Shown: positions 1 through 40,763 of the stretch, piece by piece | Layout: each line of letters starts with the position of its first letter | How positions within the stretch are numbered: position 1 is the stretch's first letter | Assembly: GCA_963821635.1 (NCBI GenBank) | Contig: CAWGEP010000001.1 | Span: 613,157 to 677,156 of the forward strand | DNA: 64,000 bases | Direction of reading: 5' to 3' | Source: an uncultured bacterium | GTDB taxonomy: Bacteria; Zixibacteria; MSB-5A5; GN15; FEB-12 | The notes under the pieces: model-generated | Database searches by the model: none | What the model was told of the DNA's origin: nothing | Seen by the model: only the letters and a program-made list of their open reading frames with translations | Made by a program: the position numbers and the translations under genes

Positions 1-828
1 CAACTGCGGGTAGCCGTCGAGATTCTCGACCGGAATTTGCCAGCGGGCCAAAAAATTTCCCACGCTGACCGGATCGTTGACCCGTAGCAGAAGAAAATCG
101 GCGGCCGTGATCCGGCTTTGCATCCCCAGTCGGTTGAGGCCGGTGGCCACGCGAAGAGTCTCATCGTGCAACTCTTTCAGGCGTTTTCCCAGCGGACCAT
201 CGTTGTCCATCGTCAGGGCGATCGTGCGATACAAAGTATTGGAAATATTTTTGAAGCCGAGGTTTTCCCGGACTCTCGCCACCACGGGCGAGCTGGCGAC
301 CAGATACCCGGCATTGGCCGAGTTGATTCCAAAGGAGGCCGTGAAGGAGCGAAGCACCACTACATTTGGATATTTGTCCAACAGTGGGGTGGCCGTGATT
401 CCGAAGTAGTCGAAATAATATTCATCGACAATCAGCAATCCTTCACTGACCTTCTGGGCCAGCGCTTCCAGGTCGGCCAGACCGAAATTAGCTCCGGTGA
501 TGCGATTGGGATTCGCGACATAGAGAACGGCCCGGGACACATTCGTGACTTCGCGGACCGCTTCAGCATCTGAGGAAAATGGGGAGACCCCCAGCAGTTC
601 CCGTACTTTCAGGTCAGCCCGGTCGGCAGCGACGGCAATATCCGGCGAGGCATGGCCAAGGCTCAGCAGTTCGTCCTGATCGCCTCGAGCCATTTTCAAC
701 AGTTCGGGCATGAAATCATCGAACTCCGCAAAGGGCAGAACCATATCCGCGGAGACCATAAGTTTTCGCGCGAGCGATCCGGCGAGTTCATCGACTCGTT
801 CCGGCGAAACGGGGGGTACTAAACGCAT
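1..828 (-). CDS. Class I/II (fold-type I) aminotransferase-like protein, HisC-like; 3' end lies outside the window
   Basis: My own translation of the minus strand from ATG at 826-828 gives 276 codons with no stop down to position 1. It is absent from the ORF track because no stop lies in the window. RBS GGAAGGAAG lies upstream. Motifs YVANPNRITGANF and LRSFTASFGINSANAGYL resemble PNNPTG and LRTxSKAFGLAGLRxGY of histidinol-phosphate aminotransferases. Confidence 0.7.
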   Translation of the reverse strand, partial: MRLVPPVSPERVDELAGSLARKLMVSADMVLPFAEFDDFMPELLKMARGDQDELLSLGHASPDIAVAADRADLKVRELLGVSPFSSDAEAVREVTNVSRAVLYVANPNRITGANFGLADLEALAQKVSEGLLIVDEYYFDYFGITATPLLDKYPNVVVLRSFTASFGINSANAGYLVASSPVVARVRENLGFKNISNTLYRTIALTMDNDGPLGKRLKELHDETLRVATGLNRLGMQSRITAADFLLLRVNDPVSVGNFLARWQIPVENLDGYPQL

Positions 829-7829: not shown

Positions 7830-9005
7830 TCAGACTCTTTTGACCTTCGTCCGAATCGCCTCAAAGGCTTTTCGCAGATCAATAAGCAGATCGTCGATAT
7901 GCTCTATCCCGACCGACAGCCGCACCAGGCTGTCCGTAATCCCGAATTTTTCGCGGACTTCTTTGGGAATCGACGAGTGCGTCATCGAGGCCGGGTGGTT
8001 GATCAACGATTCAACGCCTCCGAGCGACTCCGCCAGCACAAACACTTCGGTCGCCATGACAAAGGCTTTGACTGATTCAAAATCCGCTTTCAACGTAAAC
8101 GTCACCATGCCGCCCGGCATGGTCATGCCATTGGCCACGGCTTTGCCGTCATGCCCCGGGAAGTAGATTTTGTCGACCAGATCCATGGTCTCGAGAAATT
8201 CGACCACTTTCATGGCGTTGAACGAGTGCCGCTCCATCCGCACATGCAGAGTCTTGAGACCTCGTAGCACCAACCAGGAATCAAAGGGACCAAGGGTGCC
8301 CCCGACAGCGTACTGGTTGAACCGGACTTTTTCGGCCAGCGCTTCATCTTTGACTACCAGGGCACCGGCGATAACGTCACAATGACCGGCGAGATATTTG
8401 GACGCCGAGTGATGCACGATATCGGCTCCCAGCTCCAGCGGCCGCTGAATAAACGGGGTGGCGAAGGTGTTGTCGACTCCCACCAGAATTCCGTGCCCTT
8501 TGGCAATCTTGGCGACCGCCGCGATATCAACCAGATACAGAAGGGGGTTGGTCGGCGACTCCAGCCAGAACAATTTGGTATTTGGTTTGACCGCCCTGCC
8601 AAAGTTCTGCGGATCGCGCCCATCGACATAGCTGAAATCCAGATTGAAATTCCGCATGAGGCGCTCAAACAGCCGCCGGGTGCCGCCATAAAGATCATCG
8701 ACTGCGACCACGTGGTCCCCGGACTTGAGCAAATCAAGCACGGCATTCAGCGCCGCCAGGCCCGAGGCAAAAGCAAATCCGTGGCTGCCGTTTTCGAGCG
8801 CCGCCAGCGCTTTTTCCAGCGCGAGCCTCGTGGGATTGGACCAGCGGGAATAGACATACCCGGATTCATCCCCGGGGAATCCGACACGATAGGTCGAACT
8901 CGGGAAAATCGGCGTGCTGACCGAGCCGGTCTGATCCTCCGGAACCTGTCCGGAGTGAATCGCCTTGGTTTCAAATTTGAAATTGTTGAATCTGCTGGAA
9001 CTCAT
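7830..9005 (-). CDS. Cys/Met-metabolism PLP enzyme (cystathionine gamma-lyase / gamma-synthase family)
   Basis: ORF 7830..9083. I trimmed the start to the ATG at 9005 (MSSSRFNNFKFETKAIHSGQ), which follows AGGTGG and avoids overlap with the upstream gene. The family is recognisable from FETKAIHSG, SGLAA, HSASKYLAGH (PLP lysine) and ESLGGVESL. Confidence 0.85.
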   Translation of the reverse strand: MSSSRFNNFKFETKAIHSGQVPEDQTGSVSTPIFPSSTYRVGFPGDESGYVYSRWSNPTRLALEKALAALENGSHGFAFASGLAALNAVLDLLKSGDHVVAVDDLYGGTRRLFERLMRNFNLDFSYVDGRDPQNFGRAVKPNTKLFWLESPTNPLLYLVDIAAVAKIAKGHGILVGVDNTFATPFIQRPLELGADIVHHSASKYLAGHCDVIAGALVVKDEALAEKVRFNQYAVGGTLGPFDSWLVLRGLKTLHVRMERHSFNAMKVVEFLETMDLVDKIYFPGHDGKAVANGMTMPGGMVTFTLKADFESVKAFVMATEVFVLAESLGGVESLINHPASMTHSSIPKEVREKFGITDSLVRLSVGIEHIDDLLIDLRKAFEAIRTKVKRV

Positions 9006-9055
9006 GGACCACCTGTACTCAAAATCTATGTTGACCGTTCCGAGAGGCTCGAGGC

Positions 9056-10042
9056 TTAGAGAAACCCCTTTTCCTTCATCCAACTATCATTAAACATCTT
9101 GCTGATATACTTGCTCCCGCTATCCGGAAGAATGACAACCATCAGTTTGTCCGCCGGGAGCGTTTTGGCATGCTTGAGCGCCACTGCCACCGCCGCCCCG
9201 CTTGAGCCGCCGGCCAGGATCCCTTCCTTGCGGGCAAGGTCCCGCCCCGCCTGGAAACTCTCCTTATCACCGACTTGATAAATCGTATCGATTACGGTCA
9301 GATCGATCGAGGGGCAGAGCATATCTTCCCCGATTCCCTCGACAAAGTAAGTGTGCGGCTCGATCATCGTCTTGTCTTTGTGGTACTGGTAGTAAACCGA
9401 GCCATATGGGTCGGCCGCCACCACCTGGATTTTCGGGTTTTGCTCTTTGAGATATTTCGCCACTCCGGAGACAGTGCCGCCGGTTCCAATTCCCCCTACC
9501 AGCACATCCAGTTTTCCCTTGGTCTGCTTCCAGATCTCCGGCCCCGTGAGGTTGTAGTGCGCCTCGATATTGTTCAGATTAAAGTACTGGCCGACGAAAT
9601 AGGAGTTCGGCGTCTCCCGCTGGATCCGCTTGGCGGTTTCGTAGTAGCTTTGAGGGGATTCCGCCGGAACGGCCGTCGGGCAGATGTGCACCTCGGCGCC
9701 AAACGCTCTCAAGGCATCGACTTTCTCCGAGGACATTTTGTCCGGGATCGTCAGAATCGCCTTGTAGCCGTACACGGCCGCGAACATCGCCACCGCCGCG
9801 CCGGTGTTGCCGGAGGTCGCCTCGACGATCGTCCCGCCCGGCTTAAGCTCGCCGCGTTCAATTGCCTGTTTCAGGATGTAGGTGGCCATCCGGTCTTTGA
9901 TCGAACCGGTCGGATTGAGGAATTCCAGTTTCGCCAGGACCGTGGCTTTGATCCCCTGTTCGGCGGATAGTTTTCGAAGATGCACCATCGGCGTATTGCC
10001 GATGGTCTCAGTAATGTCATGCGCAAAAAACGATTCAGTCAT
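9056..10042 (-). CDS. Cysteine synthase / cystathionine beta-synthase-like PLP enzyme (no CBS domains)
   Basis: ORF 9056..10093. I trimmed the start to the ATG at 10042, which follows GGAGAAAGT. IGNTPMVHLRKL, NPTGSIKDRMA, SGNTGAAVA and GIGTGGTVSG are CysK/CBS signatures. Confidence 0.85.
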   Translation of the reverse strand: MTESFFAHDITETIGNTPMVHLRKLSAEQGIKATVLAKLEFLNPTGSIKDRMATYILKQAIERGELKPGGTIVEATSGNTGAAVAMFAAVYGYKAILTIPDKMSSEKVDALRAFGAEVHICPTAVPAESPQSYYETAKRIQRETPNSYFVGQYFNLNNIEAHYNLTGPEIWKQTKGKLDVLVGGIGTGGTVSGVAKYLKEQNPKIQVVAADPYGSVYYQYHKDKTMIEPHTYFVEGIGEDMLCPSIDLTVIDTIYQVGDKESFQAGRDLARKEGILAGGSSGAAVAVALKHAKTLPADKLMVVILPDSGSKYISKMFNDSWMKEKGFL

Positions 10043-10375
10043 ACTTTCTCCAAAAAGATCTTCATCCCGTCGCCGGGGCCAGTCAAGATACATAACGACA
10101 TCACCCCAAACAACCGCGAGATCGGGCGGTTCACGCCAATTATCGACCCTTTTTAGCGGAACTCCGGCGCTTCTTTTCTTGTATTACGGGACAGGCGCGC
10201 CGGGTGCAAACCGGCCAACGCTGCAACCGCCTAGCCGACCCGGAATTTATTTGACATCAATCAGGCTTCGCGTAGATTGACCGCCGCTGCCACGTCGCGG
10301 CCCTCAACGCCGGCCGAGCAACGGTTCTTCCGGGTGAACTTGAGTACGGAACATGACTAATGGAGGAGTTGCCAG

Positions 10376-10549
10376 ATGTTCTGCCGACAGTGCAATGAGA
10401 AAATCGAAGGGAAACCGGTCAAGCAGGGGGACGAACTGTACTGCTCTTTGGAGTGCGCCAATCTCGCCTCCGGAGTCGAGCCGGAAGAGACTGAGGATTA
10501 CTTTGATGAAGACGGAGCCGAAGAGTTCTTCGAAGATGATGAGAAGTAG
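10376..10549 (+). CDS. Small (57 aa) Cys4 zinc-ribbon / TRASH-like protein with acidic C-terminal tail
   Basis: Not in the ORF track because it is under 60 aa. ATG at 10376 follows GGAGGAG. Translation: MFCRQCNEKIEGKPVKQGDELYCSLECANLASGVEPEETEDYFDEDGAEEFFEDDEK. A candidate TTGACA-N16-TAGATT promoter lies about 125 nt upstream. Confidence 0.6.
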   Translation: MFCRQCNEKIEGKPVKQGDELYCSLECANLASGVEPEETEDYFDEDGAEEFFEDDEK

Positions 10550-10560
10550 CGGTCCCCGGC

Positions 10561-11037
10561 CTACTCTCTGGTTATTCTCAATATCTCGTAGGTGATTTTC
10601 CCCGCCGGAACTGTGATTACCACCACATCCCCGACCGTTTTCCCCAGGAGCGCCGCCCCGATAGGGGACTTGACCGAAATGACATCGTTATCGACATCGG
10701 CTTCGTCGGCCGGTACGATCGTATAAAGCGTTTCTTCGCTATCCCGACTATCTTTCACCAGGACCTTCGAAAACAAATACACTTTGTCGTTGGGGATCTT
10801 CTCGACATCGACCGTCCGGACCCTTGAGAGTTTGTCCTCGATCTCCGAGATCTTCCGCTCGATATGGACCTGGGCTTCTTTGGCGGCATGGTACTCGGCG
10901 TTTTCCGAAAGGTCCCCTAACTCCTTGGCGCGCTTGATCTCCGCGATGATTCGCGGGCGTTCCTCAAATTTCAGCCGTTTGAGCTCAGCCTCCATTTTTA
11001 ATCGTCCGTCGCGGGAAAGGTAGATATGGTCGCTCAT
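10561..11037 (-). CDS. greA: Transcription elongation factor GreA
   Basis: 158 aa. LSENAEYHAAKEAQ and the C-terminal SPIGAALLGK motif are characteristic. Confidence 0.95.
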   Translation of the reverse strand: MSDHIYLSRDGRLKMEAELKRLKFEERPRIIAEIKRAKELGDLSENAEYHAAKEAQVHIERKISEIEDKLSRVRTVDVEKIPNDKVYLFSKVLVKDSRDSEETLYTIVPADEADVDNDVISVKSPIGAALLGKTVGDVVVITVPAGKITYEILRITRE

Positions 11038-11065: not shown

Positions 11066-12443
11066 CTAGTGCAACGATACCGGCTCTCTGCGGGAAAACA
11101 GCCCGAAAATCACCAGCGAGACAATGAGCCCCGGAAAGATCGGCTCCAGCCCCAGCCAGTCCGCTCCCTGGCGGTACGAGAACAGGTACCAGACCAACGC
11201 CACCCCGCCGCTCAGAATGATCGAGGCCAGACTGTACTTCGGGGGGAGCCGCCGGTTCCCCACAAACGTGCTCACCACCGGCACCAGCAGCGCCGGTGCC
11301 CCGATAGTGCCGTACAGATACCAGATTTCGATCACCGAGCGGAAATAGATCGCCAGGACGACCGCCACCGCCGTCGAGACAATCAGCCCGATCCGAGTGT
11401 ATTTCGTAATCTGGTCTTTCGCCTTCGGGATTAGTCTTGGCATCAGATCGTTACCGAAAGTCGAGGCTGAAATCAGAGAATAGGCGTTCACGGTGGACAT
11501 TACGGTAGCAAACATGGCCACCACAAACAGTCCCAGTATTCCAGCCGGGAGAACTTTGAGCGCCAGCGCCGGGTATGATGTCACCGGGTCGGCCAGATCC
11601 GGCAAGATGGCCCGGGCGTACAGACCGCAGAAAGTGGTCATGAAATCAAACAATATCCAGAACAGAATTGAGATGAATATCCCGGTGCGGGCGGTTCCCA
11701 CGCTCTTGACCGCATAGCAGCGTTGGAAGAAGATCGGCTCGGTCAGGGTCATAGCGCAATGATATACCAGCTGGCAATATACCATCCAGAATTGCCGCCA
11801 TGCCAGGTCAACTGAAGGGGCGGAAGGTGCGCCACGAGCCAGCCAAACCCGCCGTAGTTGATCATCAGGAAAATCAACATCACCGCGAATCCGGCGTACA
11901 TCAGAACGAATTCAAACACATCAGTTCGGACCACCGAGTTGAATCCGCCCCAATACACATACACAATTGAAACAAACGTCCCCAGCAGCACTCCGACCCA
12001 GAGGGGCCAGCCAAACATGATCGCACAGAGCTCCCCGACAATCAGGACATAGGCCGCCGGCGGAGTCAGCAGAAAGAGAATCGTCGCTCCGGCCAGGGCA
12101 GTGCGGTTGTCGTACTTCTGGCCAGCCGATCCGGGATCGTGAGCAGCATGCTTTGACGCGCCTTTTTGGCGAGCAGTACAGCAAACAAAAACGCCGCCAA
12201 ATAGTATGGTACCCCTTGCACCAGCCAGTTGGAGATCCCGTAGCGGTAGCTGTATTCTCCAACCCCGAGTACCCCGCCATACCAGGCGGAAACCAGCGTT
12301 CCGACAAACGCCGGCAGCGTCAGAAGCCGGCCGCCTATAATCATGTCCGCCGCCGATGACCCCGGTTTGAGGCGGCGGAAGAATCCCAGCCCGAGCACGA
12401 TCAGGGCGTAGACGACAACTATGGCATAGTCAAGTTGATGCAT
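11066..12443 (-). pseudogene. Sodium:solute symporter (SSF) family transporter, ThiV/PanF-like, split by two frameshifts
   Basis: Three consecutive minus-strand ORFs (12066..12443, 11749..12018, 11066..11785) each carry SSF-like transmembrane sequence. My retranslation shows the frame continuing as ...TIPDRL/QKYDNRTALAGATILFLL... near 12120 and as ...WYIASWYIIA/MTLTEPIFFQRCYA... near 11755. Confidence 0.8.
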
Positions 12444-12453
12444 TTGGTCTCAA

Positions 12454-14958
12454 TCAGAAGAATTCCAATTCGAGTTGGGCGTAAAAACTTCGCTCCGCCG
12501 CTACATAGTACCAGCCGTCCCCCCGCACCACCGTGTTACTCCGCGAGGTTCCGTCAACCCAGTTGTCACCGTACCCGCCGGTGAGATACTTCTGGTTGAA
12601 CAGATTGTCCACCGTCACCGCCAGGCGCGGCCGCCCAATTCCCAACAGATTGGAGAAAGTGTAGGCGGCGGTCACCGAAGTCGTAGTGAACGGCTTGATC
12701 GCCAGGCTGTCGATATTGTACAGCTCGACAAACTGTTTCCCGACAAACCGTGTCCGAAGCGTCAAGCGGGCATGCTGATCGTTGTAATCGAGAATCAGAT
12801 TGCCCAGATAATTGGGAAATCCGGAGATCGTCTTGTTCTTGTAGTCGACCGTCAGCACGCTGTCTGTGGCATAGCTGAAGTCCGAAGAAAACTTCTCCAC
12901 GCGGTTGAAATTAAACGCCCAGTTTCCCGACAGTTTAAGATTCTGGTGGGCCATTAGATCGCCGGTCAACTCAATTCCCGAATGAACCGATCGATCCGCA
13001 TTGATCGTATACGCCAGACCGTTATTGGGATTGATCCCGCCGTACGGAAGTATCTCGTTGCGAAAATCCATCCAGAACAGATTGACTCCGAACGCATATT
13101 TCTCGGCGCGATGATGCGCACCAAGTTCCAGGTCAAGAACACGTTCGGCTTTGGCGGTGGGATTACCAAAAGTGAAAGTGGTATCGCCATTCGCCTTGAT
13201 GGTCGTCGACTTGACATCGAGCGATGGAAACAGGGTCGGATCGGAACCATCGTAGATGTCCGCGTCGGTCGGGGTGCGCGAAGAAACAGCCGCATTGGCA
13301 AACAGGCTGGTTTTGTCATCGAGGGCGTAATTGAGTCCAAGGCGCGGGGAGAAGAAGAGCCAGTCGACATCATAGGCGTAGCCGTGGAATGCTCCCATCT
13401 TGTCCTGATTGAATTTGTATCGCTGATACCGGAACTGTGCGGTCGCCTGCAGGCTCAGCTTGTCGCTGAAATTGTATTCCTCCAAGCCATACAAGGACCC
13501 AACCCATTTCTTGCCATAGTATTGATAATACCGGTGCCTCGGGTCGAGCGGGCCGCTGATATTTTGCGCCCAGACCACCTGTCCCCAGTGATTCGAATCG
13601 AAATAATAGAACGATCCGCCGAGCGAGTGGCGCCCCTTGGCGTGGTCGATATCCAGCCTGGGATTCCAGCCCCACTGATTTTTGTCCACCCACTGCTGGC
13701 GTACGAGATCGCCGATACTGTCCCCGGCCACATAGAGCGACGGATCAATATCATAGTAGCGGTACAGTTCCTGCGGCTGGAACTGCTCGTAGTACCCTTT
13801 CCCCTGGATGTAGTAGAAAGTGTTGGTCAGAGTCGCACTGTCCGAGAGCTTGTACGTGTTCTTCAACTGGTAATGCGGCTGATTGAAATCATCGACTTCG
13901 TTATTGTAAGTCAGATCGTTGGTTCTTCGGTTGGCGGCGATGTCGTCCAGCGTCGCCCCATCGTAGGCGAGGTGATTGAGTTCCGGCCCGCCGTAGACAT
14001 GCAACTCGGTCGTCGATCTGGGGTCGAGTCGCGCCGCCGAGAGGTAATAAGCCCAGCCATTGTACCAGCTGTTCTCGCGATACCCGCCGGTCTGCTGTTT
14101 GGAAAACCGTCCCGTAAAATTCCAGCGCCCGTCGATCAGCCCGGTCGAATATTCCATCGATTGTTTCTGTATCTCCCCTGCCTTGCTTCCACCCGCAGTG
14201 TATTCCCCCCATCCACTGGTGACTTTGATTTCCCGCTGACGGGCAAAGGCATTGGTCACGATGTTGACCGACCCGCCGAACGAGGCATCTCCATAGAGTG
14301 AATTCCCCACCCCGCGCTGTACCTGAATATCGGTCACGGTTGAGGCAAAATCCGGCAAATCGACAAAGTAGGTCGTCTGATCCTCTGGATCATTCAGCGG
14401 CACACCGTTGATATAGACCGAGACCCGCTTGTCATCGAATCCCCGGATCGACATGTAGCTGTCCCCGAGTGTCCCGCCGCCGTCGGAGCGGGCATAGAGG
14501 TTGGGGGTTGATTCAAGCAAAAGCGGGAACTCTCCTACTTGATAGTCTCGCTTGATGTCATCGCGCGTGAAATTCTCAAACGCAATCGGTGTCACTCCCT
14601 TGACTGCCCGATCCGCCGAAACGGTGATATCCTGTCCCCGGTAGTATGTAGGAATCAGTGACACCGAGTTCGGCACCTCGCCAACCCGATACTGGGTTGA
14701 TTCATATCCGACCGAGGAGAAGGTCACCCGAGTAACTTGATTTGCAGGCATCCCGACCGCTGCCCCCGAATCCGGCAAAACCAGTCGGTAGTCGCCGTTG
14801 AGGTCGGTTTGGGTCCCGATCCCGGCTACATTGGTGACAACCGACACTCCGGGCAGCGGTTTTCCCTGCTGGTCGGTAACTTTGCCGGCAAGTTCCCGGG
14901 CTTCGACCAGCCTGCCGACACAAGCCAGGACGATAATGGCGGTGATGAAACGCTTCAT
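12454..14958 (-). CDS. TonB-dependent outer-membrane receptor with N-terminal carboxypeptidase-regulatory-like domain; probable thiamine-related uptake (riboswitch-controlled)
   Basis: ORF 12454..15069. I trimmed the start to the ATG at 14958 (MKRFITAIIVLACVGRLVEA signal peptide, GAGGT RBS). It has a plug region (SIRGFDDKRVSVYINGVPLNDPE) and a C-terminal beta-barrel ending ...YAQLELEFF. A TPP riboswitch lies upstream. Confidence 0.9.
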   Translation of the reverse strand: MKRFITAIIVLACVGRLVEARELAGKVTDQQGKPLPGVSVVTNVAGIGTQTDLNGDYRLVLPDSGAAVGMPANQVTRVTFSSVGYESTQYRVGEVPNSVSLIPTYYRGQDITVSADRAVKGVTPIAFENFTRDDIKRDYQVGEFPLLLESTPNLYARSDGGGTLGDSYMSIRGFDDKRVSVYINGVPLNDPEDQTTYFVDLPDFASTVTDIQVQRGVGNSLYGDASFGGSVNIVTNAFARQREIKVTSGWGEYTAGGSKAGEIQKQSMEYSTGLIDGRWNFTGRFSKQQTGGYRENSWYNGWAYYLSAARLDPRSTTELHVYGGPELNHLAYDGATLDDIAANRRTNDLTYNNEVDDFNQPHYQLKNTYKLSDSATLTNTFYYIQGKGYYEQFQPQELYRYYDIDPSLYVAGDSIGDLVRQQWVDKNQWGWNPRLDIDHAKGRHSLGGSFYYFDSNHWGQVVWAQNISGPLDPRHRYYQYYGKKWVGSLYGLEEYNFSDKLSLQATAQFRYQRYKFNQDKMGAFHGYAYDVDWLFFSPRLGLNYALDDKTSLFANAAVSSRTPTDADIYDGSDPTLFPSLDVKSTTIKANGDTTFTFGNPTAKAERVLDLELGAHHRAEKYAFGVNLFWMDFRNEILPYGGINPNNGLAYTINADRSVHSGIELTGDLMAHQNLKLSGNWAFNFNRVEKFSSDFSYATDSVLTVDYKNKTISGFPNYLGNLILDYNDQHARLTLRTRFVGKQFVELYNIDSLAIKPFTTTSVTAAYTFSNLLGIGRPRLAVTVDNLFNQKYLTGGYGDNWVDGTSRSNTVVRGDGWYYVAAERSFYAQLELEFF

Positions 14959-15125
14959 GACAGTAACCTCGCATGGTATGAGACGTTGCAAGATTCCGTC
15001 CTGATTTGATAGGTGAGCCAGGTAGGGCATGGGACTGGGCAGATGGCGCACCGGTGCGTGGTTACTCATCCCCCACCCTAAAGGGTGGGCGACCGCGACG
15101 GGTAGGGCACCGTGAAGAGAGGGGC

Positions 15126-15172
15126 GAGATCGCCACGTCGTCCCGCTCCTGGCGGGACTCCTCGCGATGACA
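15126..15172. repeat. GC-rich palindromic repeat element (GAGATCGCCACGTCG, hairpin, CTCCTCGCGATGACA)
   Basis: Both 15-nt flanks are identical to those of the element at 16303..16355, while the central hairpin differs. It lies inside the 5' leader of the TonB-dependent receptor. Confidence 0.8.
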
Positions 15173-15291
15173 TTGCTCAGAATCGCCGTCGGTTCGAGCG
15201 GAGACGAGTACCACGATCAGGCCAAGGCACGCGCTGCCGAGTCCGTCTGACCTCTACATAGCTGGAACGGGGGATGTGACTCTACGCATCT

Positions 15292-15374
15292 TCCGTTTCC
15301 CTACGCCGGTATTACCCGGATCAGGTCGAGGGGGTATGATCTCAGGCGGTCGTTTGTACGCCACCCCCAACGGA
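15292..15374 (-). promoter_or_regulatory. TPP (THI-box) riboswitch aptamer
   Basis: The minus strand reads UCCGUUGGGGGUGGCGUACAAACGACCGCCUGAGAUCAUACCCCCUCGACCUGAUCCGGGUAAUACCGGCGUAGGGAAACGGA. It contains the conserved GGGGUG, CUGAGA, ACCC and ACCUGAUC..GGUAAUACC.GCGUAGGGAA blocks, plus a closing P1 helix UCCGUU/AACGGA. Confidence 0.9.
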
Positions 15375-15561
15375 TCTCTGTTCTGACAAATGTATACGAT
15401 ACTTCCCCCAGACAGCGCAAGTCTCTTTTTCGACCGGCAAAGACCGGCCGCATACACAAAATCCGCCTCAAACCTTGCGCCGGAGTATAACTCCTGATAA
15501 TCTGATCGCGATCAGAACGATTGTTCGCCAGTTCGATAACATCAAATTTTGGGAGGTCCTC

Positions 15562-16044: not shown

Positions 16045-16406
16045 ATGTCGGTCGCCGTCGAGGCGCCCGACATCTTGTCTAAATTCCCGCCATCGCAGGA
16101 ATGACATTTGCGGTAAGCGACGTCTTTTCAAGATGTGCGATTTGCCTTGTGGCACGAGTACGGCAACTCGTGCCCCACATGAATTCTCATCACTGTCATT
16201 CCGAGGAGGCCCCGCATCATGCGGGGACGACTTGGGAATCTCAATTTCTATAATCAAAAGAAAGAGTCACAGGCACGGGTAAGCCGACCACAACACTGAA
16301 CTGAGATCGCCACGTCGCTCCCCCGCTTGAAGCGGGGTCGCTCCTCGCGATGACAATCATATGGAATTTGGCGCAGCTTAAGTCGGCCGCCGTCGAGGCA
16401 ATGACA
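16045..16406. repeat. Cluster of at least five GC-rich palindromic (REP/MITE-like) elements
   Basis: - 16045-16073: ATGTCGG..CCGACAT hairpin.
- 16083-16106: ATTCCCGCCATCGCAGGAATGACA.
- 16151-16174: GGCACGAG..CTCGTGCC.
- 16195-16242: TGTCATTCCGAGGAGGCCCCGCATCATGCGGGGACGACTTGGGAATCTC.
- 16303-16355: GAGATCGCCACGTCG..CTCCTCGCGATGACA.
- 16382-16406: shares GTCGGYCGCCGTCGAGGC with 16047-16064. Confidence 0.8.
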
Positions 16407-16410
16407 ATTC

Positions 16411-16936
16411 TTACGAATTACTCGGCTGCGTTTCCTGCACCGGCGCTTCGATCTCTTTCGGCCGGGCAAACAGCATCTTGATAATCAAAAACACCAGCGC
16501 GCAAGTAATCGCCGAATCGGCAATATTGAATGTCCACCAGCGATCCATGTGGAACCCGGCGATATTGATCTTGAAGAAATCGACATCAATAAAATCGACC
16601 ACTTTCCCAATTCGCACCCGGTCCACCGCGTTCCCGATCGCCCCGGCGATGATGAAGGCCAGCGGCCAGGAATACGAGGCATCGTTGCGATACTGGTACA
16701 GAAAGTATCCGAGAATCGGCAGGATAATCAGGGCAATTACTAGATGAATAGTGGGAGGTACCGAGAACCGTCCCCATCGCGCCCCCTTCGTTGTACACGA
16801 GCGTAAATCGAAGGAAATCCCCTATCGCTTTCAGAGAATTTTGGCCGGTGAGCGTGTCAACCGCCCAAGCCTTAGTGATCTGGTCAAGGATGACCACGGC
16901 GAGGATAATAATCGAGGGCCAAAGGAATCGCTTCAC
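16411..16936 (-). pseudogene. lspA: Lipoprotein signal peptidase II (LspA), reading frame broken once
   Basis: ORF 16586..16936 carries the N-terminal part (LDQITKAWAV...LVYNEGGAMG). ORF 16411..16626 carries the C-terminal part (GNAVDRVRIGKVVDFIDV...FNIADSAI). My retranslation in the +1 frame gives the missing TIHLVIALIILPILGYFLYQYRNDASYSWPLAFIIAGAIGNAVDR. The shift is near 16752-16760, at a CCC/GGG run. Confidence 0.8.
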
Positions 16937-37316: not shown

Positions 37317-39346
37317 ATGTCCAGGGAACACGCGACTTCAAATGACAATTGTCAAAATGGTCAAACCCGTTCAATTATAGTCTACATTTTCTTACTTGTT
37401 GCCCTGTTTGGTACTTCCTTCTTGCCCACGCAGCGGATGTGGGGTCTGAGTGTTTGGGCGTACTTCCCATTGTGGGCAAGATTCCTGCTTCTGGCAGCGG
37501 GAGGCGCTGCATTACCGGCAGGCCTTTGGATTAGTCGACGAGTGGACTCCCGACCGCTACCGCTCAAACCTTGGGTTCACTATGCCACGCTTTGCTCAAT
37601 AGTTCTGATCGGTGCTGTCTCATTCTGGCTTCTTCGGAACACAACCCACTTTCTTGGTAATGGCTACAGTCACCTTGCAAATCTCTCTGGCGCCCACCCG
37701 ATTATAAAGTGGCATGAGCCCGGCGAGAGTCTATTGCATTTGTGGCTCGCTCAGGCCTTTGGTGAAAACAGCACGGCTCACGTCCTGCTCAGCTATCAGC
37801 TGTTCTCGGTGTTCGCTGGGATTTTATTCCTGACAATTGTCGTCTGGACTTCGATGCGCCTGTTTGACGACTTGCCGCGCCGGCTTCTATTTAGCCTGGG
37901 GCTTGCGACCTCAGGACACATGTTACTGTTCTTCGGCTATGTCGAAAACCGAAGTCTCTTCGTTCTGGGAGTGGGTGCATTCACGCTCGCGGGGATTCTA
38001 ATCGCGCAGAAGAAACTTCCGGTTTGGCTTGCTCCTGCCATACTTGGTCTGACCCTTTTCATGCACATATTCGGAGTTATTTTGATTCCTGCTACGATGT
38101 ATATGCTCATCTCCAGGACACGTCTCGGATCAATCCTGGAGGAGCTGTCACAAAAATTAAGGATCCTGTTGGGGCTTGGCTTGGCTTTGGCGCTGCTGTC
38201 TGCTCTTGCAATAGGGTTTCAGAAGAGTCTGTTTTTCCGCATCGCACTACTCACTATTACGGAGTCGCGCTTTACTATCGAAGGTTACACATTGTTCTCC
38301 GCAGCGCACCTGGCGGATTACGCGAACCTGCTATTCATTCTAGTCCTGGCATTCCATTGTTGGCGGCTGTTATTCCTGCCTCCAGCTTAAGAGAACGATT
38401 CGCGCGATCGGAATACCGCTTCCTCGGCATTCTCATCTTGTCCGCACTGTCGCTTGCGTTTATTTTGATACCGAAACTCGGAATGCCGCGCGATTGGGAC
38501 CTGTTGACTTTCCATCCACACCGCTTAGCGCCGCGTTCTACTTACGGTTCAGACCATGCGCGCCTACCCCGGAAGGCGATTTCCGCGGCGATATTCGGAG
38601 TATGCCTGAGTGGCCTGATCTTGAGCGCGCGAGTCGTAACGCTGTTCTATCCTGAGGCGGCGACTGCGCAAATTGAGAACTACTTGAATCTCGACATCTG
38701 AAGGCTCGAAACGCCACGTCTATTTGAAATCTATTACGATCAAATTGGCGACTCCGCCAATTCGCCAAGGCCGGGCAACTCTACGCATCCTACCCGGATG
38801 ACTCCTTCTTCCAAGCGACTCAATCCGACATTGCAAATCAGAGATATTATGACGTTATCGTAAGAGCAGAGACTTGGGCTCGGCGCAATCCGATGTCGTC
38901 AGATGCCTACTCGGCTTTGGGTTTCGCCTATCTCCGTCTGGGACAGCCGGATTCAGCGGTCAATGAGCTATCCATTGCATGGGTTTAAACCCGCATAATT
39001 CCGGTGCCGCCACTGGGCTAGGCATTGCCTACATTACCAGGGCAAATTCGATCGTGCGTTGAACAGTCTGCGTGACGCCGCTGAATTAGGGCCCGACAAA
39101 GCAGGGGCATTTTATTACCTGTCGAAGATATACGGGAAGAAGAATCAAGTCGACCAGCAATTGGAGACCCTCCGGGCCGCTATTTCAAAAAGTGACGCAA
39201 CACCGGAGATGTTCACCGAATCAGTGAATCTCCTAATCCGCCTGGGGCGTTACGCGGAGGCCCGTGAGGCGCTCAGAATTGGAGCTCAACATGGGCTCGA
39301 CTCGGGTCAATTAATGAACCGGATTCCACGCGGTGATGATAGATAG
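37317..39346 (+). pseudogene. Polytopic membrane protein with C-terminal TPR repeats, fragmented by at least three frameshifts
   Basis: ORF 37317..38390 encodes multiple transmembrane segments. The sequence continues in ORF 38024..38701 from about 38345 (..IPLLAAVIPASSLRERFARSEYRFLGILILSAL..RDWDL). TPR-like sequence follows in shifting frames across 38760-39060 (SDAYSALGFAYLRLGQPDSAVNELS / AATGLGIAYI). It ends with ORF 39059..39346 (AGAFYYLSKIYGKKNQVDQQLETLRAAI). Confidence 0.65.
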
Positions 39347-39821: not shown

Positions 39822-40763
39822 TCACCGATCTGCTTTCCATCGCGCCGCCAGGTCCCTGACCGCCTTATCATACCGGATATAAACCTGAATCCGCTTCCAG
39901 CAGCCGCCCGGGATAGACTCTCCGGCTCTTCAACAACAATTCGCTTTCAGTCCGCATGAAGAATGTCCCGATCTCAAGCATGAGCGGGTAGCCGGCAAGC
40001 CGATTTTGACGCCAAGTGCTCTTCGAAGCGCCGCCATGAATTCTCGTTGCGGCAAAGGGGTCGGGGCTGCCAGGTTCACCGGCCCGGACAATTCTTGGTG
40101 TTCGATCAGAAAATCTACCGCCCGGACAAAATCCGTTTCGTGAATCAGGACATGTACTGTCTTCCCCCGCCGTCCGGCCCGCCGAGCCCAATTTTAGTCA
40201 GACCAGATAGCAGGTCGAATGTCCCGCCCTTCTGGGGGCTCATCAACATGGCGGTCCGCATTGCTACTTTGCGGGTGCGCGGTGTAACCGCTTTCTCCAA
40301 TTCCGCTTCCCAAGCCGTGGCGATCTTGATACTGTGTCTCCAATTCGATGGTGCGTCCAGTTCATTCCCGCCAATAATGCCGCTCACTTCGTCATTGGTC
40401 GCATCGAAACGGTGCGCATAAATCGTTGCCGTGCTCATCTGGAGCCAAACTTTCGGCGGATTCTTGGCTTGGGCAATGGCTTGACCGATTACCCGGGTGG
40501 AATCGATTCGCGAATTCATCATGTCGGCAAGGTTTTGCGCTGAGTATCGGCAATTGACACTCCGCCCCGCCAAATTGATCACGACATCCGACCGGTCGAT
40601 CTCCCCCGCCCAGTCATCGAGATTCTTCCCGTCCCACAGACGGTCATTTGGCCCACTGACCCCGCGACGGACCAGCGAGACTACCTGATATCCCCTGTTT
40701 GTGTATGCTGAGACCAGGATTCCGGCCGATTTGGCCGGTCGCTCCGGTAATGACAATCTTCAT
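39822..40763 (-). pseudogene. TIGR01777/YfcH-like NAD-dependent epimerase (SDR with DUF1731), at least four frameshifts
   Basis: - ATG at 40763 gives MKIVITGATGQIGR, then the frame is lost.
- ORF 40145..40756 carries the core.
- After ..GGRQYMS the protein continues in another frame as WIHETDFVRAVDFLIEHQELSGPVNLAAPTPLPQREFMAALRRALGV.
- It then changes frame again to LMLEIGTFFMRTESELLLKSRRVYPGRLLEA.
- Finally it reads YIRYDKAVRDLAARWKADR* with the stop at 39822-39824. Confidence 0.75.

What the first reader, a model, noticed from the sequence alone, without database searches (positions are those of the whole stretch)
11066..15374. TPP riboswitch controlling a TonB-dependent receptor plus an SSF symporter: candidate two-membrane thiamine/precursor salvage operon
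A textbook THI-box aptamer (15292-15374, minus strand) lies upstream of a TonB-dependent receptor. The receptor stop is only 10 nt from the start of an SSF-family transporter. TPP riboswitches in front of TonB-dependent receptors are known from Bacteroidetes, and SSF-family ThiV was predicted as a thiazole/thiamine-related importer from THI-element linkage. The combination receptor plus SSF symporter under one THI box is not a described pairing, as far as I know.

Two oddities stand out. The aptamer is separated from the start codon by about 330 nt, with no obvious terminator or RBS-sequestering helix next to the aptamer. The inner-membrane partner is frameshifted twice.
Basis: partly seen in the sequence, partly recalled or inferred. 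Interest (0 to 1): 0.6.

Follow-up and report, generated by a model that had tools for sequence, protein, structure and literature searches.

The report
Thiamine riboswitch-controlled two-membrane uptake operon
A vitamin-B1-sensing RNA switch really does precede an outer-membrane receptor gene and an inner-membrane sodium symporter gene in this Zixibacteria genome, but the arrangement is widespread and already reported in a related phylum, and both oddities have ordinary explanations.

Summary
An RF00059 TPP aptamer lies at 15281-15378 (-) and scores 70.9 bits against a gathering score of 54.3. It precedes an 834-aa TonB-dependent receptor, and an SSF symporter starts 10 nt after the receptor's stop codon.

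The arrangement is the rule in this group. In 80 related species-level genomes (Zixibacteria, Calditrichota, GN15 and other FCB MAGs), the aptamer is present wherever upstream sequence exists. The SSF gene follows the receptor in 69 of 72 loci.

The 322-nt leader is explained. The family has a conserved ~85-nt expression platform that ends in a hairpin burying the Shine-Dalgarno sequence and the AUG. The window keeps this hairpin at 14956-15003. The extra length is an expanded variable hairpin, which includes an 88-nt insertion carrying a small dispersed repeat.

The two SSF frameshifts are probably assembly indels. lspA and at least one other gene in the window are also broken. A close relative has intact SSF and lspA. 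SSF dN/dS against that relative is 0.03.

The pairing is not new. The Caldithrix abyssi genome paper (2017) reported TPP riboswitch, TonB receptor, sodium-solute symporter and thiamin pyrophosphokinase together. Verdict: a new member of a known kind, of modest interest.

The parts
15391..15420 (-). Promoter-like element: TTGCGC, 18-nt spacer, TATACA, preceded by an A-tract and about 12 nt upstream of P1
   Evidence: Read from the sequence. A CTTG[ACT] motif occurs 30-65 nt upstream of the aptamer in 74 of 75 loci, against 8.6% of random windows. TTGnnn-16..19-TAnnnT occurs in 38 of 75 loci, against 2.7%. It is inferred to be the promoter; there are no transcript data.
15281..15378 (-). TPP riboswitch aptamer (THI element), with a short P3
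   Evidence: RF00059 at 70.9 bits against a gathering score of 54.3. It scores 105.7 bits with the family-specific model R1. It is nearly identical to the aptamers of 10 related loci, with 88% mean column identity.
15267..15296 (-). Small hairpin ACGGAAGAUG..CAUCCCCCGU that overlaps the P1 3' strand; candidate anti-P1 element
   Evidence: GAUG/CAUC pairing is conserved in 46-48 of 48 leaders. It forms in the window's predicted folds. Its role is inferred.
15018..15265 (-). Expanded variable hairpin domain; in most relatives this is a 15-25-nt stem-loop
   Evidence: The leaders compared. The window's fold shows it as one self-contained irregular hairpin. About 150 nt of it is shared with the close relative L081, and less with L070.
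15101..15188 (-). 88-nt lineage-specific insertion inside the variable hairpin; it carries a 47-nt small palindromic repeat at 15126-15172
   Evidence: Absent from L081 at the homologous position. Further repeat copies lie at 16303-16356 (-) and 16193-16243 (+).
14956..15003 (-). SD/AUG-sequestering hairpin. The anti-SD strand 14988-15003 (CAGGACGGAAUCUUGC) pairs with 14956-14972, which includes the SD GAGG at 14967-14970 and the AUG at 14956-14958
   Evidence: dG -18.7 kcal/mol and z -3.1 for the isolated segment. The homologous helix is 98.6% paired across 48 leaders, against 34-45% in slid registers, with one compensatory pair. The SD is fully paired in the MFE of 43 of 48 leaders.
15370..15378 (-). 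P1 5' strand and its 5' flank (GAGAUCCGU); candidate anti-sequestor partner of the anti-SD strand
   Evidence: When the SD is forced free, 15370-15378 pairs with 14990-14999. The equivalent long-range helix is 96.6% paired in 48 leaders, against 15-70% in slid registers. One position shows GU 19, AU 18, GC 8. This role is inferred.
12454..14958 (-). TonB-dependent receptor, 834 aa, with a signal peptide, a CarboxypepD_reg-like domain, a plug and a barrel
   Evidence: Pfam. More than 100 homologues at 53-71% identity, many named Zixibacteria. It is 92% identical to the protein of L081.
11066..12443 (-). SSF (sodium:solute symporter) gene. It reads as 459 aa once two single-base gaps are restored, at ~12120-12122 and ~11752
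   Evidence: Pfam PF00474. Three-frame translation. The stitched protein aligns over 1-458 with no gaps at 94% identity to the intact 459-aa L081 gene. It is 84% identical to P0121.

Best explanation
This is a two-gene operon for taking up thiamine or a closely related vitamer across both membranes, switched off by thiamine pyrophosphate (TPP).

Transcription probably starts at a conserved promoter-like element just upstream of the aptamer (inferred). The RNA begins with a TPP aptamer (shown). When TPP is bound, helix P1 is held closed. A downstream strand, CAGGACGGAAUCUUGC, is then free to pair with the Shine-Dalgarno sequence and the AUG of the receptor gene. Translation of the receptor is blocked, and so probably is translation of the symporter, whose start lies 10 nt after the receptor's stop. 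The helix is shown by conservation and folding; its effect on translation is inferred.

Without TPP, the anti-SD strand contains a copy of the P1 3' strand (ACGGA) and can pair instead with the P1 5' strand. That would free the ribosome-binding site. This relay step is inferred and is the weakest part of the model.

The window's leader is 322 nt rather than the usual ~85 nt. A variable hairpin between the aptamer and the sequestor has grown by insertion, including an 88-nt piece that carries a small dispersed repeat. The insert folds on itself, so the two functional ends of the leader are still brought together.

The two frameshifts in the symporter gene are most likely single-base errors in the assembly, so the organism probably has an intact gene.
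For: Aptamer: (70.9 bits against 54.3).

Conserved linkage:
- RF00059 is present in 10 of 10 loci tested.
- The family model finds an aptamer upstream of the receptor in 74 of 75 loci with upstream sequence. The 75th has a 5'-cut copy.
- SSF follows the receptor in 69 of 72 loci, mostly within about 10 nt.
- The next gene is greA in 49 of 63 loci, so the unit is two genes.

Expression platform:
- The conserved sequence GGAGAUG-loop-CAUCCCC-hairpin-ACCUAUCGAUUCAGGACGGAAUCUUGC-N~20-GCGAGGUUACUGUCAUG is seen in the leaders.
- RNAalifold recovers the SD/AUG helix.
- The helix is 98.6% paired, against 34-45% in slid registers, with 4 sequences carrying G-C to A-U at one pair.
- The SD is paired in the MFE of 43 of 48 leaders.
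- The window hairpin has dG -18.7 kcal/mol and z -3.1.
- No terminator-like or sigma-70-like site lies inside the leader.

Relay: with the SD forced free, the P1 5' strand pairs with the anti-SD strand in the window and in relatives. That helix is 96.6% paired across 48 leaders.

Insertion.

Frameshifts as artefacts:
- lspA is split by an extra C at 16746.
- A yfcH-like gene is split.
- The gene at 37317-39346 probably lies in several frames.
- Five short-read assemblies of a close relative have the same receptor protein followed by SSF. SSF is a full 459 aa in four of them and cut by the contig end in the fifth. lspA is intact in the one locus that reaches it.
- dN/dS against that relative is 0.028 for SSF and 0.038 for the receptor. 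All three SSF fragments are at or below 0.045.

Literature:
- The same gene set plus a thiamin pyrophosphokinase was reported in Caldithrix (PMC5317091).
- Bacteroides OMthi and PnuT are shown genetically to act in thiamine uptake (PMC5613172).
- The TPP riboswitches of the B. thetaiotaomicron transport operons act on translation (bioRxiv 10.1101/867226).
Against: - No expression, binding or transport data exist for this family.
- The sequences are so conserved that covariation is thin. The sequestor has one compensatory pair and the proposed anti-sequestor has none.
- The SD-free fold is about 10 kcal/mol less stable than the sequestered fold, in the window and on average. An ON state would therefore need kinetic, co-transcriptional control, which was not tested.
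- The 248-nt insert lies between the aptamer and the anti-SD strand and could weaken or abolish coupling in this genome.
- The substrate is not established. It could be thiamine, as the pyrophosphokinase in the Caldithrix locus suggests, or a pyrimidine precursor, as proposed for ThiV.
- Two indels in 1.4 kb is more than the window-wide rate of roughly 1 per 10 kb predicts, so a recent real inactivation cannot be excluded.
Confidence: 0.8

Rival explanations
1. The locus is decaying in this genome. The symporter is a true pseudogene with two real frameshifts, and the riboswitch has been uncoupled from the ribosome-binding site by the leader insertion. Only the receptor, at most, would still work.
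For: - Two frame breaks lie in one 1.38-kb gene.
- An 88-nt repeat-bearing insertion is absent from the closest relative.
- The leader is four times the family norm.
- With roughly 6 frame breaks in 64 kb, two in this one gene is unlikely by chance alone (about 1%, my estimate).
Against: - The essential gene lspA, 4.3 kb away, also carries a single-base frame break, and a yfcH-like gene is split as well. This points to consensus errors in a long-contig assembly; one search gives the contig as 1.41 Mb.
- All three SSF fragments are under strong purifying selection relative to L081, with dN/dS 0.015-0.045, lower than the receptor.
- There are no in-frame stops, and the stitched protein aligns without gaps.
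- The aptamer, the promoter-like element and the sequestor hairpin are essentially identical to those of L081.
- The insert folds as a closed domain.
Confidence: 0.15
2. The operon imports a thiamine precursor or breakdown product, such as HMP, AmMP, FAMP or a thiazole moiety, rather than intact thiamine. The SSF protein would then be a ThiV-type pyrimidine symporter served by its own outer-membrane receptor.
For: - SSF transporters under THI-box control (thiV) are treated in the marine B1 literature as putative HMP/pyrimidine symporters (PMC10881298; PMC12442306).
- No thiamin pyrophosphokinase is linked in the Zixibacteria loci examined.
Against: - In Caldithrix the same kind of locus carries a thiamin pyrophosphokinase. 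Its receptor is reported as highly similar to the Bacteroides thiamine receptor BT2390 (PMC5317091; PMC5613172).
- No thiD, thiE or tenA gene is linked in any locus examined.
- Orthology of this SSF to SAR11 or Rodionov ThiV could not be tested here.
Confidence: 0.3
3. Regulation acts mainly on transcription, through Rho-dependent or other premature termination in the long leader. The hairpin at the start codon would play only a minor part.
For: [quoted passage not shown]
- A few family members (L052, L062, L069, L049) have hairpin-plus-U-run platforms instead, and the tandem loci have a terminator-like element after the first aptamer.
Against: - No intrinsic-terminator-like site lies in the window leader.
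- The conserved helix covers the SD and the AUG exactly.
- Translational repression could in any case cause secondary Rho termination, so the two mechanisms are not exclusive.
Confidence: 0.15

Closest known systems
Caldithrix abyssi thiamine locus Cabys_3975-3977 (Kublanov et al. 2017, PMC5317091)
   Same: A TPP riboswitch lies well upstream (163 nt) of a TonB-dependent receptor, with a sodium-solute symporter in the same locus, in an FCB-superphylum bacterium. Calditrichota MAG loci L061 and L072 belong to the same family as the window. Their receptors are 48% and 52% identical to the window's, and the L061 SSF is 62% identical.
   Different: The Caldithrix locus also carries a thiamin pyrophosphokinase, which the Zixibacteria loci lack; there greA follows instead. 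The paper gives a one-paragraph annotation with no analysis of distribution or expression platform. Direct sequence comparison with Cabys_3975/3976 was not possible with these tools.
Bacteroides OMthi (BT2390) - PnuT - Tnr3 thiamine uptake system (Costliow & Degnan 2017, PMC5613172; bioRxiv 10.1101/867226)
   Same: A TPP-riboswitch-controlled TonB-dependent outer-membrane transporter is teamed with an inner-membrane transporter. Regulation of the B. thetaiotaomicron transport operons is translational.
   Different: The inner-membrane partner there is PnuT, a facilitator trapped by a kinase, not an SSF sodium symporter. Bacteroides transport riboswitches lie on average 21 nt from the start codon, and less than 5 nt in B. 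thetaiotaomicron. Here a separate ~85-nt platform with its own sequestor hairpin is used, stretched to 322 nt in the window.
ThiV, the THI-box-linked SSF transporter (Rodionov et al. 2002; SAR11 thiV, as cited in PMC10881298)
   Same: It is an SSF-family (PF00474) inner-membrane symporter under TPP riboswitch control. Its nearest curated relatives are PanF and PutP, and the window protein scores below their cut-offs.
   Different: ThiV genes are described as directly riboswitch-led or next to thi/tenA genes, without a dedicated outer-membrane receptor, and are assigned to HMP. Orthology with the present SSF is untested.
omr1, the TPP-riboswitch-linked TonB-dependent receptor used as a marker in marine B1 studies
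   Same: It is a TonB-dependent receptor with a nearby TPP riboswitch and a presumed role in B1 uptake.
   Different: It is reported as a stand-alone marker in SAR86, Flavobacteriales, Sphingomonadales and others. No SSF partner is mentioned in the passages read from those papers.

Membership tests
RF00059 TPP riboswitch aptamer | Covariance-model score at or above Rfam's gathering score | tested here: met
   70.9 bits against 54.3, with the full model 1-105 matched.
RF00059 TPP riboswitch aptamer | Location in the 5' leader of a thiamine-related gene on the same strand, conserved in relatives | tested here: met
   On the same strand upstream of the receptor in 74 of 75 loci with upstream sequence, plus one cut copy.
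RF00059 TPP riboswitch aptamer | Binding of TPP and ligand-dependent change in expression | not testable with these tools
   This needs in-line probing or reporter assays.
TonB-dependent thiamine receptor (OMthi / omr1 type) | TonB-dependent receptor architecture (plug plus 22-strand barrel) with a signal peptide | tested here: met
   PF07715 and PF00593, plus an N-terminal CarbopepD_reg_2 domain. The N-terminus MKRFITAIIVLACVG is seen.
TonB-dependent thiamine receptor (OMthi / omr1 type) | TPP riboswitch control | tested here: met
TonB-dependent thiamine receptor (OMthi / omr1 type) | Sequence orthology to BT2390 | not testable with these tools
   No BT2390 sequence or model could be reached. 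The only link is indirect, through the published statement about the Caldithrix receptor. No solved structure matches at E<=1e-5. NCBIfam gives only sub-threshold generic receptor hits.
TonB-dependent thiamine receptor (OMthi / omr1 type) | Demonstrated thiamine uptake | not testable with these tools
   Experimental.
ThiV (THI-linked SSF transporter) | Membership of the sodium:solute symporter family | tested here: met
   PF00474 hits on two fragments. TIGR00813 and panF/putP score below their cut-offs. The nearest solved structures are SLC5A7 (6e-13) and SMVT.
ThiV (THI-linked SSF transporter) | Conserved genomic linkage to a THI element | tested here: met
   It is the second gene of the riboswitch-led unit in 65 of 69 loci where both flanks are available.
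ThiV (THI-linked SSF transporter) | Orthology to the ThiV proteins of Rodionov 2002 or SAR11, and HMP as substrate | not testable with these tools
   No reference sequence or curated model was available. The 120 best homologues are all of the Zixibacteria type and carry only generic names.
Translational (SD-sequestering) riboswitch expression platform | A conserved helix that pairs the SD and/or the start codon | tested here: met
Translational (SD-sequestering) riboswitch expression platform | A mutually exclusive alternative pairing that links aptamer state to the sequestor | tested here: inconclusive
   A candidate exists: the P1 5' strand pairing with the ACGGAAU part of the anti-SD strand. 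It is 96.6% paired and has three pair types at one position, but no double compensatory change. It is about 10 kcal/mol less stable than the OFF fold.

The most novel reading that the evidence does not exclude
The SSF protein may define an uncharacterised family of inner-membrane thiamine or B1-vitamer symporters. This family would be distinct from PnuT, ThiT, ThiBPQ and possibly from SAR11-type ThiV, and would work obligately with its own TonB-dependent receptor across Zixibacteria, Calditrichota and relatives. Its riboswitch may use an unusual long-range relay, in which the anti-SD strand mimics the P1 3' strand. That relay tolerates insertions of hundreds of nucleotides between sensor and effector.
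Probability: 0.3. Interest if true: 0.45.

Novelty: new member of a known kind. Interest (0 to 1): 0.3.

Why it matters
The finding supports annotating these two genes as a vitamin B1 uptake pair throughout Zixibacteria and neighbouring candidate phyla. These are abundant, uncultured sediment and soil bacteria, and their vitamin dependencies shape cultivation attempts and cross-feeding models. The 65 or more conserved instances give a clean target for finally testing what THI-linked SSF symporters transport.

On the practical side, this window carries several single-base frame breaks. Apparent pseudogenes in this assembly should not be interpreted biologically without checking the reads.

Tried and rejected
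- Bacteroidetes-type promoter: I looked for the TAnnTTTG motif upstream of the aptamers. It occurs in the window but in only 2 of 75 loci, so I rejected it. A sigma-70-like CTTGC...TAnnnT element is the conserved feature instead.
- Frame switches by codon usage: my own sliding codon-usage scan for frame switches across the window was too crude. It missed lspA, so I used Pfam on candidate ORF pairs instead.
- Window protein look-up: the look-up of encoding contigs had no record for the window's own receptor protein. The cluster mate P0241 did give five loci from a close relative.
- Linked pyrophosphokinase: I looked for a thiamin pyrophosphokinase or any thi gene after the SSF gene in loci that lack greA. 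None was found.
- Other anti-sequestor pairings: I considered the aptamer's CCUGA pairing with the platform's UCAGG, and CAUCCCC pairing with GGGGGUG. These are only short invariant matches with no supporting variation, so I did not pursue them.
- Programmed frameshifting in SSF: rejected, because homologues are single intact ORFs of 456-473 aa.
- Literature: one search with poorly chosen terms returned only noise. Rodionov et al. 2002 is not held in the library.
- L012 anomaly: its SSF match covers only residues 1-75 and stops just before a run of masked N bases at 8655-8754, which probably explains the short match.

Full report
**1. What is in the sequence**

A scan of the whole window against Rfam gives a single hit. 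It is RF00059 (TPP riboswitch) at 15281-15378 on the minus strand, at 70.9 bits against a gathering score of 54.3, with the complete model matched.

Downstream on the same strand is an ORF whose likely start is the ATG at 14956-14958. The N-terminus, MKRFITAIIVLACVG, looks like a signal peptide, and GAGG lies 8 nt upstream. The 834-aa product has CarboxypepD_reg-like, Plug and TonB-dependent barrel domains.

The receptor's stop codon is at 12454-12456. It is followed 10 nt later by an ATG at 12441-12443. This opens a sodium:solute symporter (SSF, PF00474) gene that reads in three successive frames down to 11066. greA follows at 10561-11037, and ileS lies upstream.

Every factual element of the finding is therefore correct. 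The organism is a member of Zixibacteria: the receptor's homologues at 53-71% identity are mostly labelled as such, and the identical protein is recorded on a 1.41-Mb contig.

**2. Is the linkage real?**

I aligned 23 receptor homologues and used the alignment to fetch 80 loci from species-representative genomes. These are Zixibacteria, MAGs labelled Ignavibacteriales, Calditrichota, GN15 and other FCB-group bins.

- RF00059 was found upstream of the receptor in 10 of 10 loci tested.
- A covariance model built from those aptamers found an aptamer on the receptor strand in 74 of 75 loci that have at least 350 nt of upstream sequence. The remaining locus has a copy cut by the contig end.
- tblastn with the frame-corrected SSF protein finds the gene immediately after the receptor in 69 of 72 loci with downstream sequence. 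Of the three exceptions, two have only about 325 nt available. Only L056 clearly lacks the gene.
- The gene after SSF is greA in 49 of 63 loci, followed by a PLP-dependent enzyme as in the window.

The regulated unit is therefore the two transport genes. It sits in a conserved chromosomal neighbourhood and is inherited vertically. No thiamine enzyme gene is attached in these lineages.

**3. The long leader**

In most loci the distance from the end of the aptamer model to the start codon is 83-90 nt. In the window it is 322 nt.

The short leaders share a strikingly conserved platform (alignment A4). In order, its elements are:

- the P1 3' strand running into GGAGAUG-loop-CAUCCCC;
- a short GC-rich hairpin of variable sequence;
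- the invariant stretch ACCUAUCGAUUCAGGACGGAAUCUUGC;
- about 20 variable nucleotides;
- GCGAGGUUACUGUCAUG, which holds the SD and the start codon.

RNAalifold pairs CAGGACGG..UCUUG with CGAGG..ACUGUCAUG, so the helix covers both the SD and the AUG. On 48 leaders this helix is 98.6% paired, against 34-45% when one strand is slid by 1-3 columns. Four sequences carry a G-C to A-U double change at one pair. Folded one at a time, 43 of 48 leaders have the SD fully paired in the minimum-energy structure.

The window keeps this element unchanged at 14956-15003. Its dG is -18.7 kcal/mol and its z-score -3.1. No terminator-like or sigma-70-like site lies within the leader.

The helix lies at the RBS, not next to the aptamer.

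**4. Where the extra 235 nt come from**

The extra sequence occupies the position of the variable hairpin and is predicted to fold as one closed, irregular hairpin domain at 15018-15265. The closest relatives show stepwise growth. L070 has a shorter version that shares the first 40 nt. L081 shares about 150 nt. The window has a further 88-nt segment (15101-15188) that L081 lacks.

That segment contains a 47-nt palindromic element, TGTCATCGCGAGGAG...CGACGTGGCGATCTC. Two more copies lie within 1.2 kb, at 16303-16356 (-) and 16193-16243 (+). Their termini covary: ATCGC/GCGAT in two copies against ATTCC/GGAAT in the third. Other family members also carry repeat-like insertions in their leaders (L019, L054, L044, L059, L056).

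The long leader is thus an insertion-tolerant loop and does not represent a different mechanism.

**5. How the aptamer might talk to the sequestor**

The anti-SD strand contains ACGGA(AU), which is the same sequence as the P1 3' strand. When the SD is forced single-stranded, the predicted fold pairs the P1 5' strand and its 5' flank with this part of the anti-SD strand. This happens in relatives and in the window, where 15370-15378 pairs with 14990-14999.

Across 48 leaders this long-range helix is 96.6% paired, against 15-70% in slid registers. Its outermost pair shows G-U in 19 sequences, A-U in 18 and G-C in 8. In addition, the small hairpin GGAGAUG..CAUCCCC overlaps the P1 3' strand and could compete with P1.

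The model has two states:

- With TPP, P1 is closed, the anti-SD strand is free, and the SD and AUG are buried (OFF).
- Without TPP, the P1 5' strand captures the anti-SD strand and the SD is free (ON).

The model is consistent with the data but is inferred. There is no double compensatory change in the long-range helix. The ON fold is about 10 kcal/mol less stable than the OFF fold, so kinetic control would be required.

Upstream of the aptamer, an A-tract followed by CTTGC and, 16-19 nt later, TAnnnT is conserved. CTTG[ACT] is present in 74 of 75 loci against 8.6% of random windows. In the window this element is TTGCGC-18-TATACA at 15391-15420. This is a plausible promoter that would place the aptamer at the very 5' end of the transcript.

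**6. The frameshifts**

Compared with intact homologues, each SSF break is one missing base. At ~12120-12122 the window reads CTGGCCAG, where L081 has an extra G and P0121 implies an extra C. At ~11752 it reads GCGCTATGACC where L081 has GCGCTGATGACC.

They are not the only frame breaks in the window:

- lspA, an essential gene, is split between 16586-16936 (Peptidase_A8 profile positions 1-48) and 16411-16737 (positions 61-142). The cause is an extra C at 16746 relative to L081.
- A yfcH-like epimerase is split between 40145-40756 and 39868-40191.
- A membrane/TPR gene at 37317-39346 appears to lie in three frames.

The 90%-identity cluster mate of the receptor led to five loci from short-read assemblies of a close relative. 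That relative is about 85% identical at the DNA level, 92% for the receptor protein and 94% for SSF. In those loci SSF is a full 459 codons in four, and is cut by the contig end in the fifth. lspA is an intact 174-codon gene in the one locus that reaches it.

Between the window and L081, dN/dS is 0.028 for SSF and 0.038 for the receptor. Each of the three SSF fragments is at or below 0.045.

Together this points to single-base consensus errors in a long-contig assembly, not to a decayed gene. A very recent real inactivation cannot be excluded without the reads. I put the artefact explanation at about 75%.

**7. Comparison with what is known**

TonB-dependent receptors behind TPP riboswitches are known as omr1 or OMthi. 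In Bacteroides thetaiotaomicron, OMthi (BT2390) and PnuT were shown genetically to serve thiamine uptake (PMC5613172). The riboswitches of the transport operons there act on translation (bioRxiv 10.1101/867226).

THI-linked SSF transporters are known as ThiV and are treated as putative pyrimidine (HMP) symporters (PMC10881298; PMC12442306).

[quoted passage not shown] It describes the receptor as highly similar to BT2390 (PMC5317091). Calditrichota MAGs are among the loci of the present family (L061, L072).

What this analysis adds:

- The pair is near-universal in Zixibacteria and relatives, and there it lacks the kinase.
- The expression platform differs from that of the Bacteroides transport riboswitches. 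Those lie within about 5-21 nt of the start codon. This family uses a separate sequestor hairpin about 85 nt away.

The substrate remains inferred. The Caldithrix kinase and the BT2390 similarity favour thiamine, while the ThiV precedent favours a pyrimidine precursor. The nearest solved structures to the SSF protein are the choline transporter SLC5A7 and the multivitamin transporter SMVT, which is not informative. Orthology to BT2390 and to ThiV could not be tested with the available tools.

**8. Verdict**

The novelty claim and both oddities are not upheld. This is a new, well-conserved member of a known kind of system, of modest interest (0.3).

The most novel reading still open has two parts. 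First, this SSF clade may be a distinct, uncharacterised thiamine or vitamer symporter family. Second, its riboswitch may use a long-range P1-mimic relay that tolerates large insertions. I give this a probability of about 0.3.

Noticed in passing
window 15126-15172 (-), 16303-16356 (-), 16193-16243 (+): A family of ~50-nt palindromic repeats with conserved ends (TGTCATCGCGAGGAG ... CGACGTGGCGATCTC) around a variable GC-rich hairpin. The ends covary between copies (ATCGC/GCGAT against ATTCC/GGAAT). One copy lies inside an 88-nt insertion in the riboswitch leader that the closest relative lacks. Similar elements sit in the leaders of L019, L054, L044 and L059. It looks like a REP/MITE-type mobile element.
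   Followed up: partly
window 16411-16936 (-): lspA (signal peptidase II, essential) is split into two frames by an extra C at 16746 relative to L081. In L081 it is an intact 174-codon gene.
   Followed up: yes
window 39868-40756 (-): A yfcH-like gene is split into two overlapping ORFs in different frames. The Epimerase domain lies in 40145-40756 and DUF1731 in 39868-40191. This is another probable single-base frame break.
   Followed up: partly
window 37317-39346 (+): A large membrane protein with C-terminal TPR repeats appears to be spread over at least three reading frames: 37317-38390, 38024-38701 and 39059-39346. The TPR-like sequence is visible in two frames. There are probably more frame breaks here.
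   Followed up: partly
L075 5742-6004; L077 5616-6005; L079 5623-5911; L080 5275-5899: The most divergent branch of the receptor family (39-42% identity) has two TPP aptamers in tandem. The first is followed by a hairpin plus U-run, which resembles a terminator. In three of the four loci (L075, L077, L080) the second aptamer ends 4-5 nt past the start codon, so its P1 3' strand overlaps the SD (GGAG) and the AUG, as in Bacteroides transport operons. In L079 the second aptamer lies 68 nt upstream of the assigned start.
   Followed up: partly
L043, L049, L052, L062, L069 leaders: A minority of family members replace the conserved SD-sequestering platform with a GC-rich hairpin followed by a U-run, which resembles an intrinsic terminator. 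The same aptamer-receptor pair therefore seems to use different expression platforms in different lineages.
   Followed up: no
window 15391-15430 (-) and the equivalent position in 74 of 75 loci: A conserved A-tract, then CTTGC, then 16-19 nt later TAnnnT, lies just upstream of the aptamer. This is a sigma-70-like promoter with an UP-like element. The Bacteroidetes-type TAnnTTTG motif is not conserved here, occurring in 2 of 75 loci.
   Followed up: partly
L024 8496-9864: The SSF gene of another long-contig MAG (MFD02416.bin.1.319) also aligns in two frames, residues 1-194 and 196-454. This suggests that frame breaks of this kind recur in such assemblies.
   Followed up: no
window 7830-11037 (-) and L081-L083: The order receptor, SSF, greA, small ORF, PALP enzyme (cystathionine beta-synthase/cysteine synthase-like), Cys/Met PLP enzyme is conserved in close relatives. 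greA follows SSF in 49 of 63 loci across the family.
   Followed up: yes
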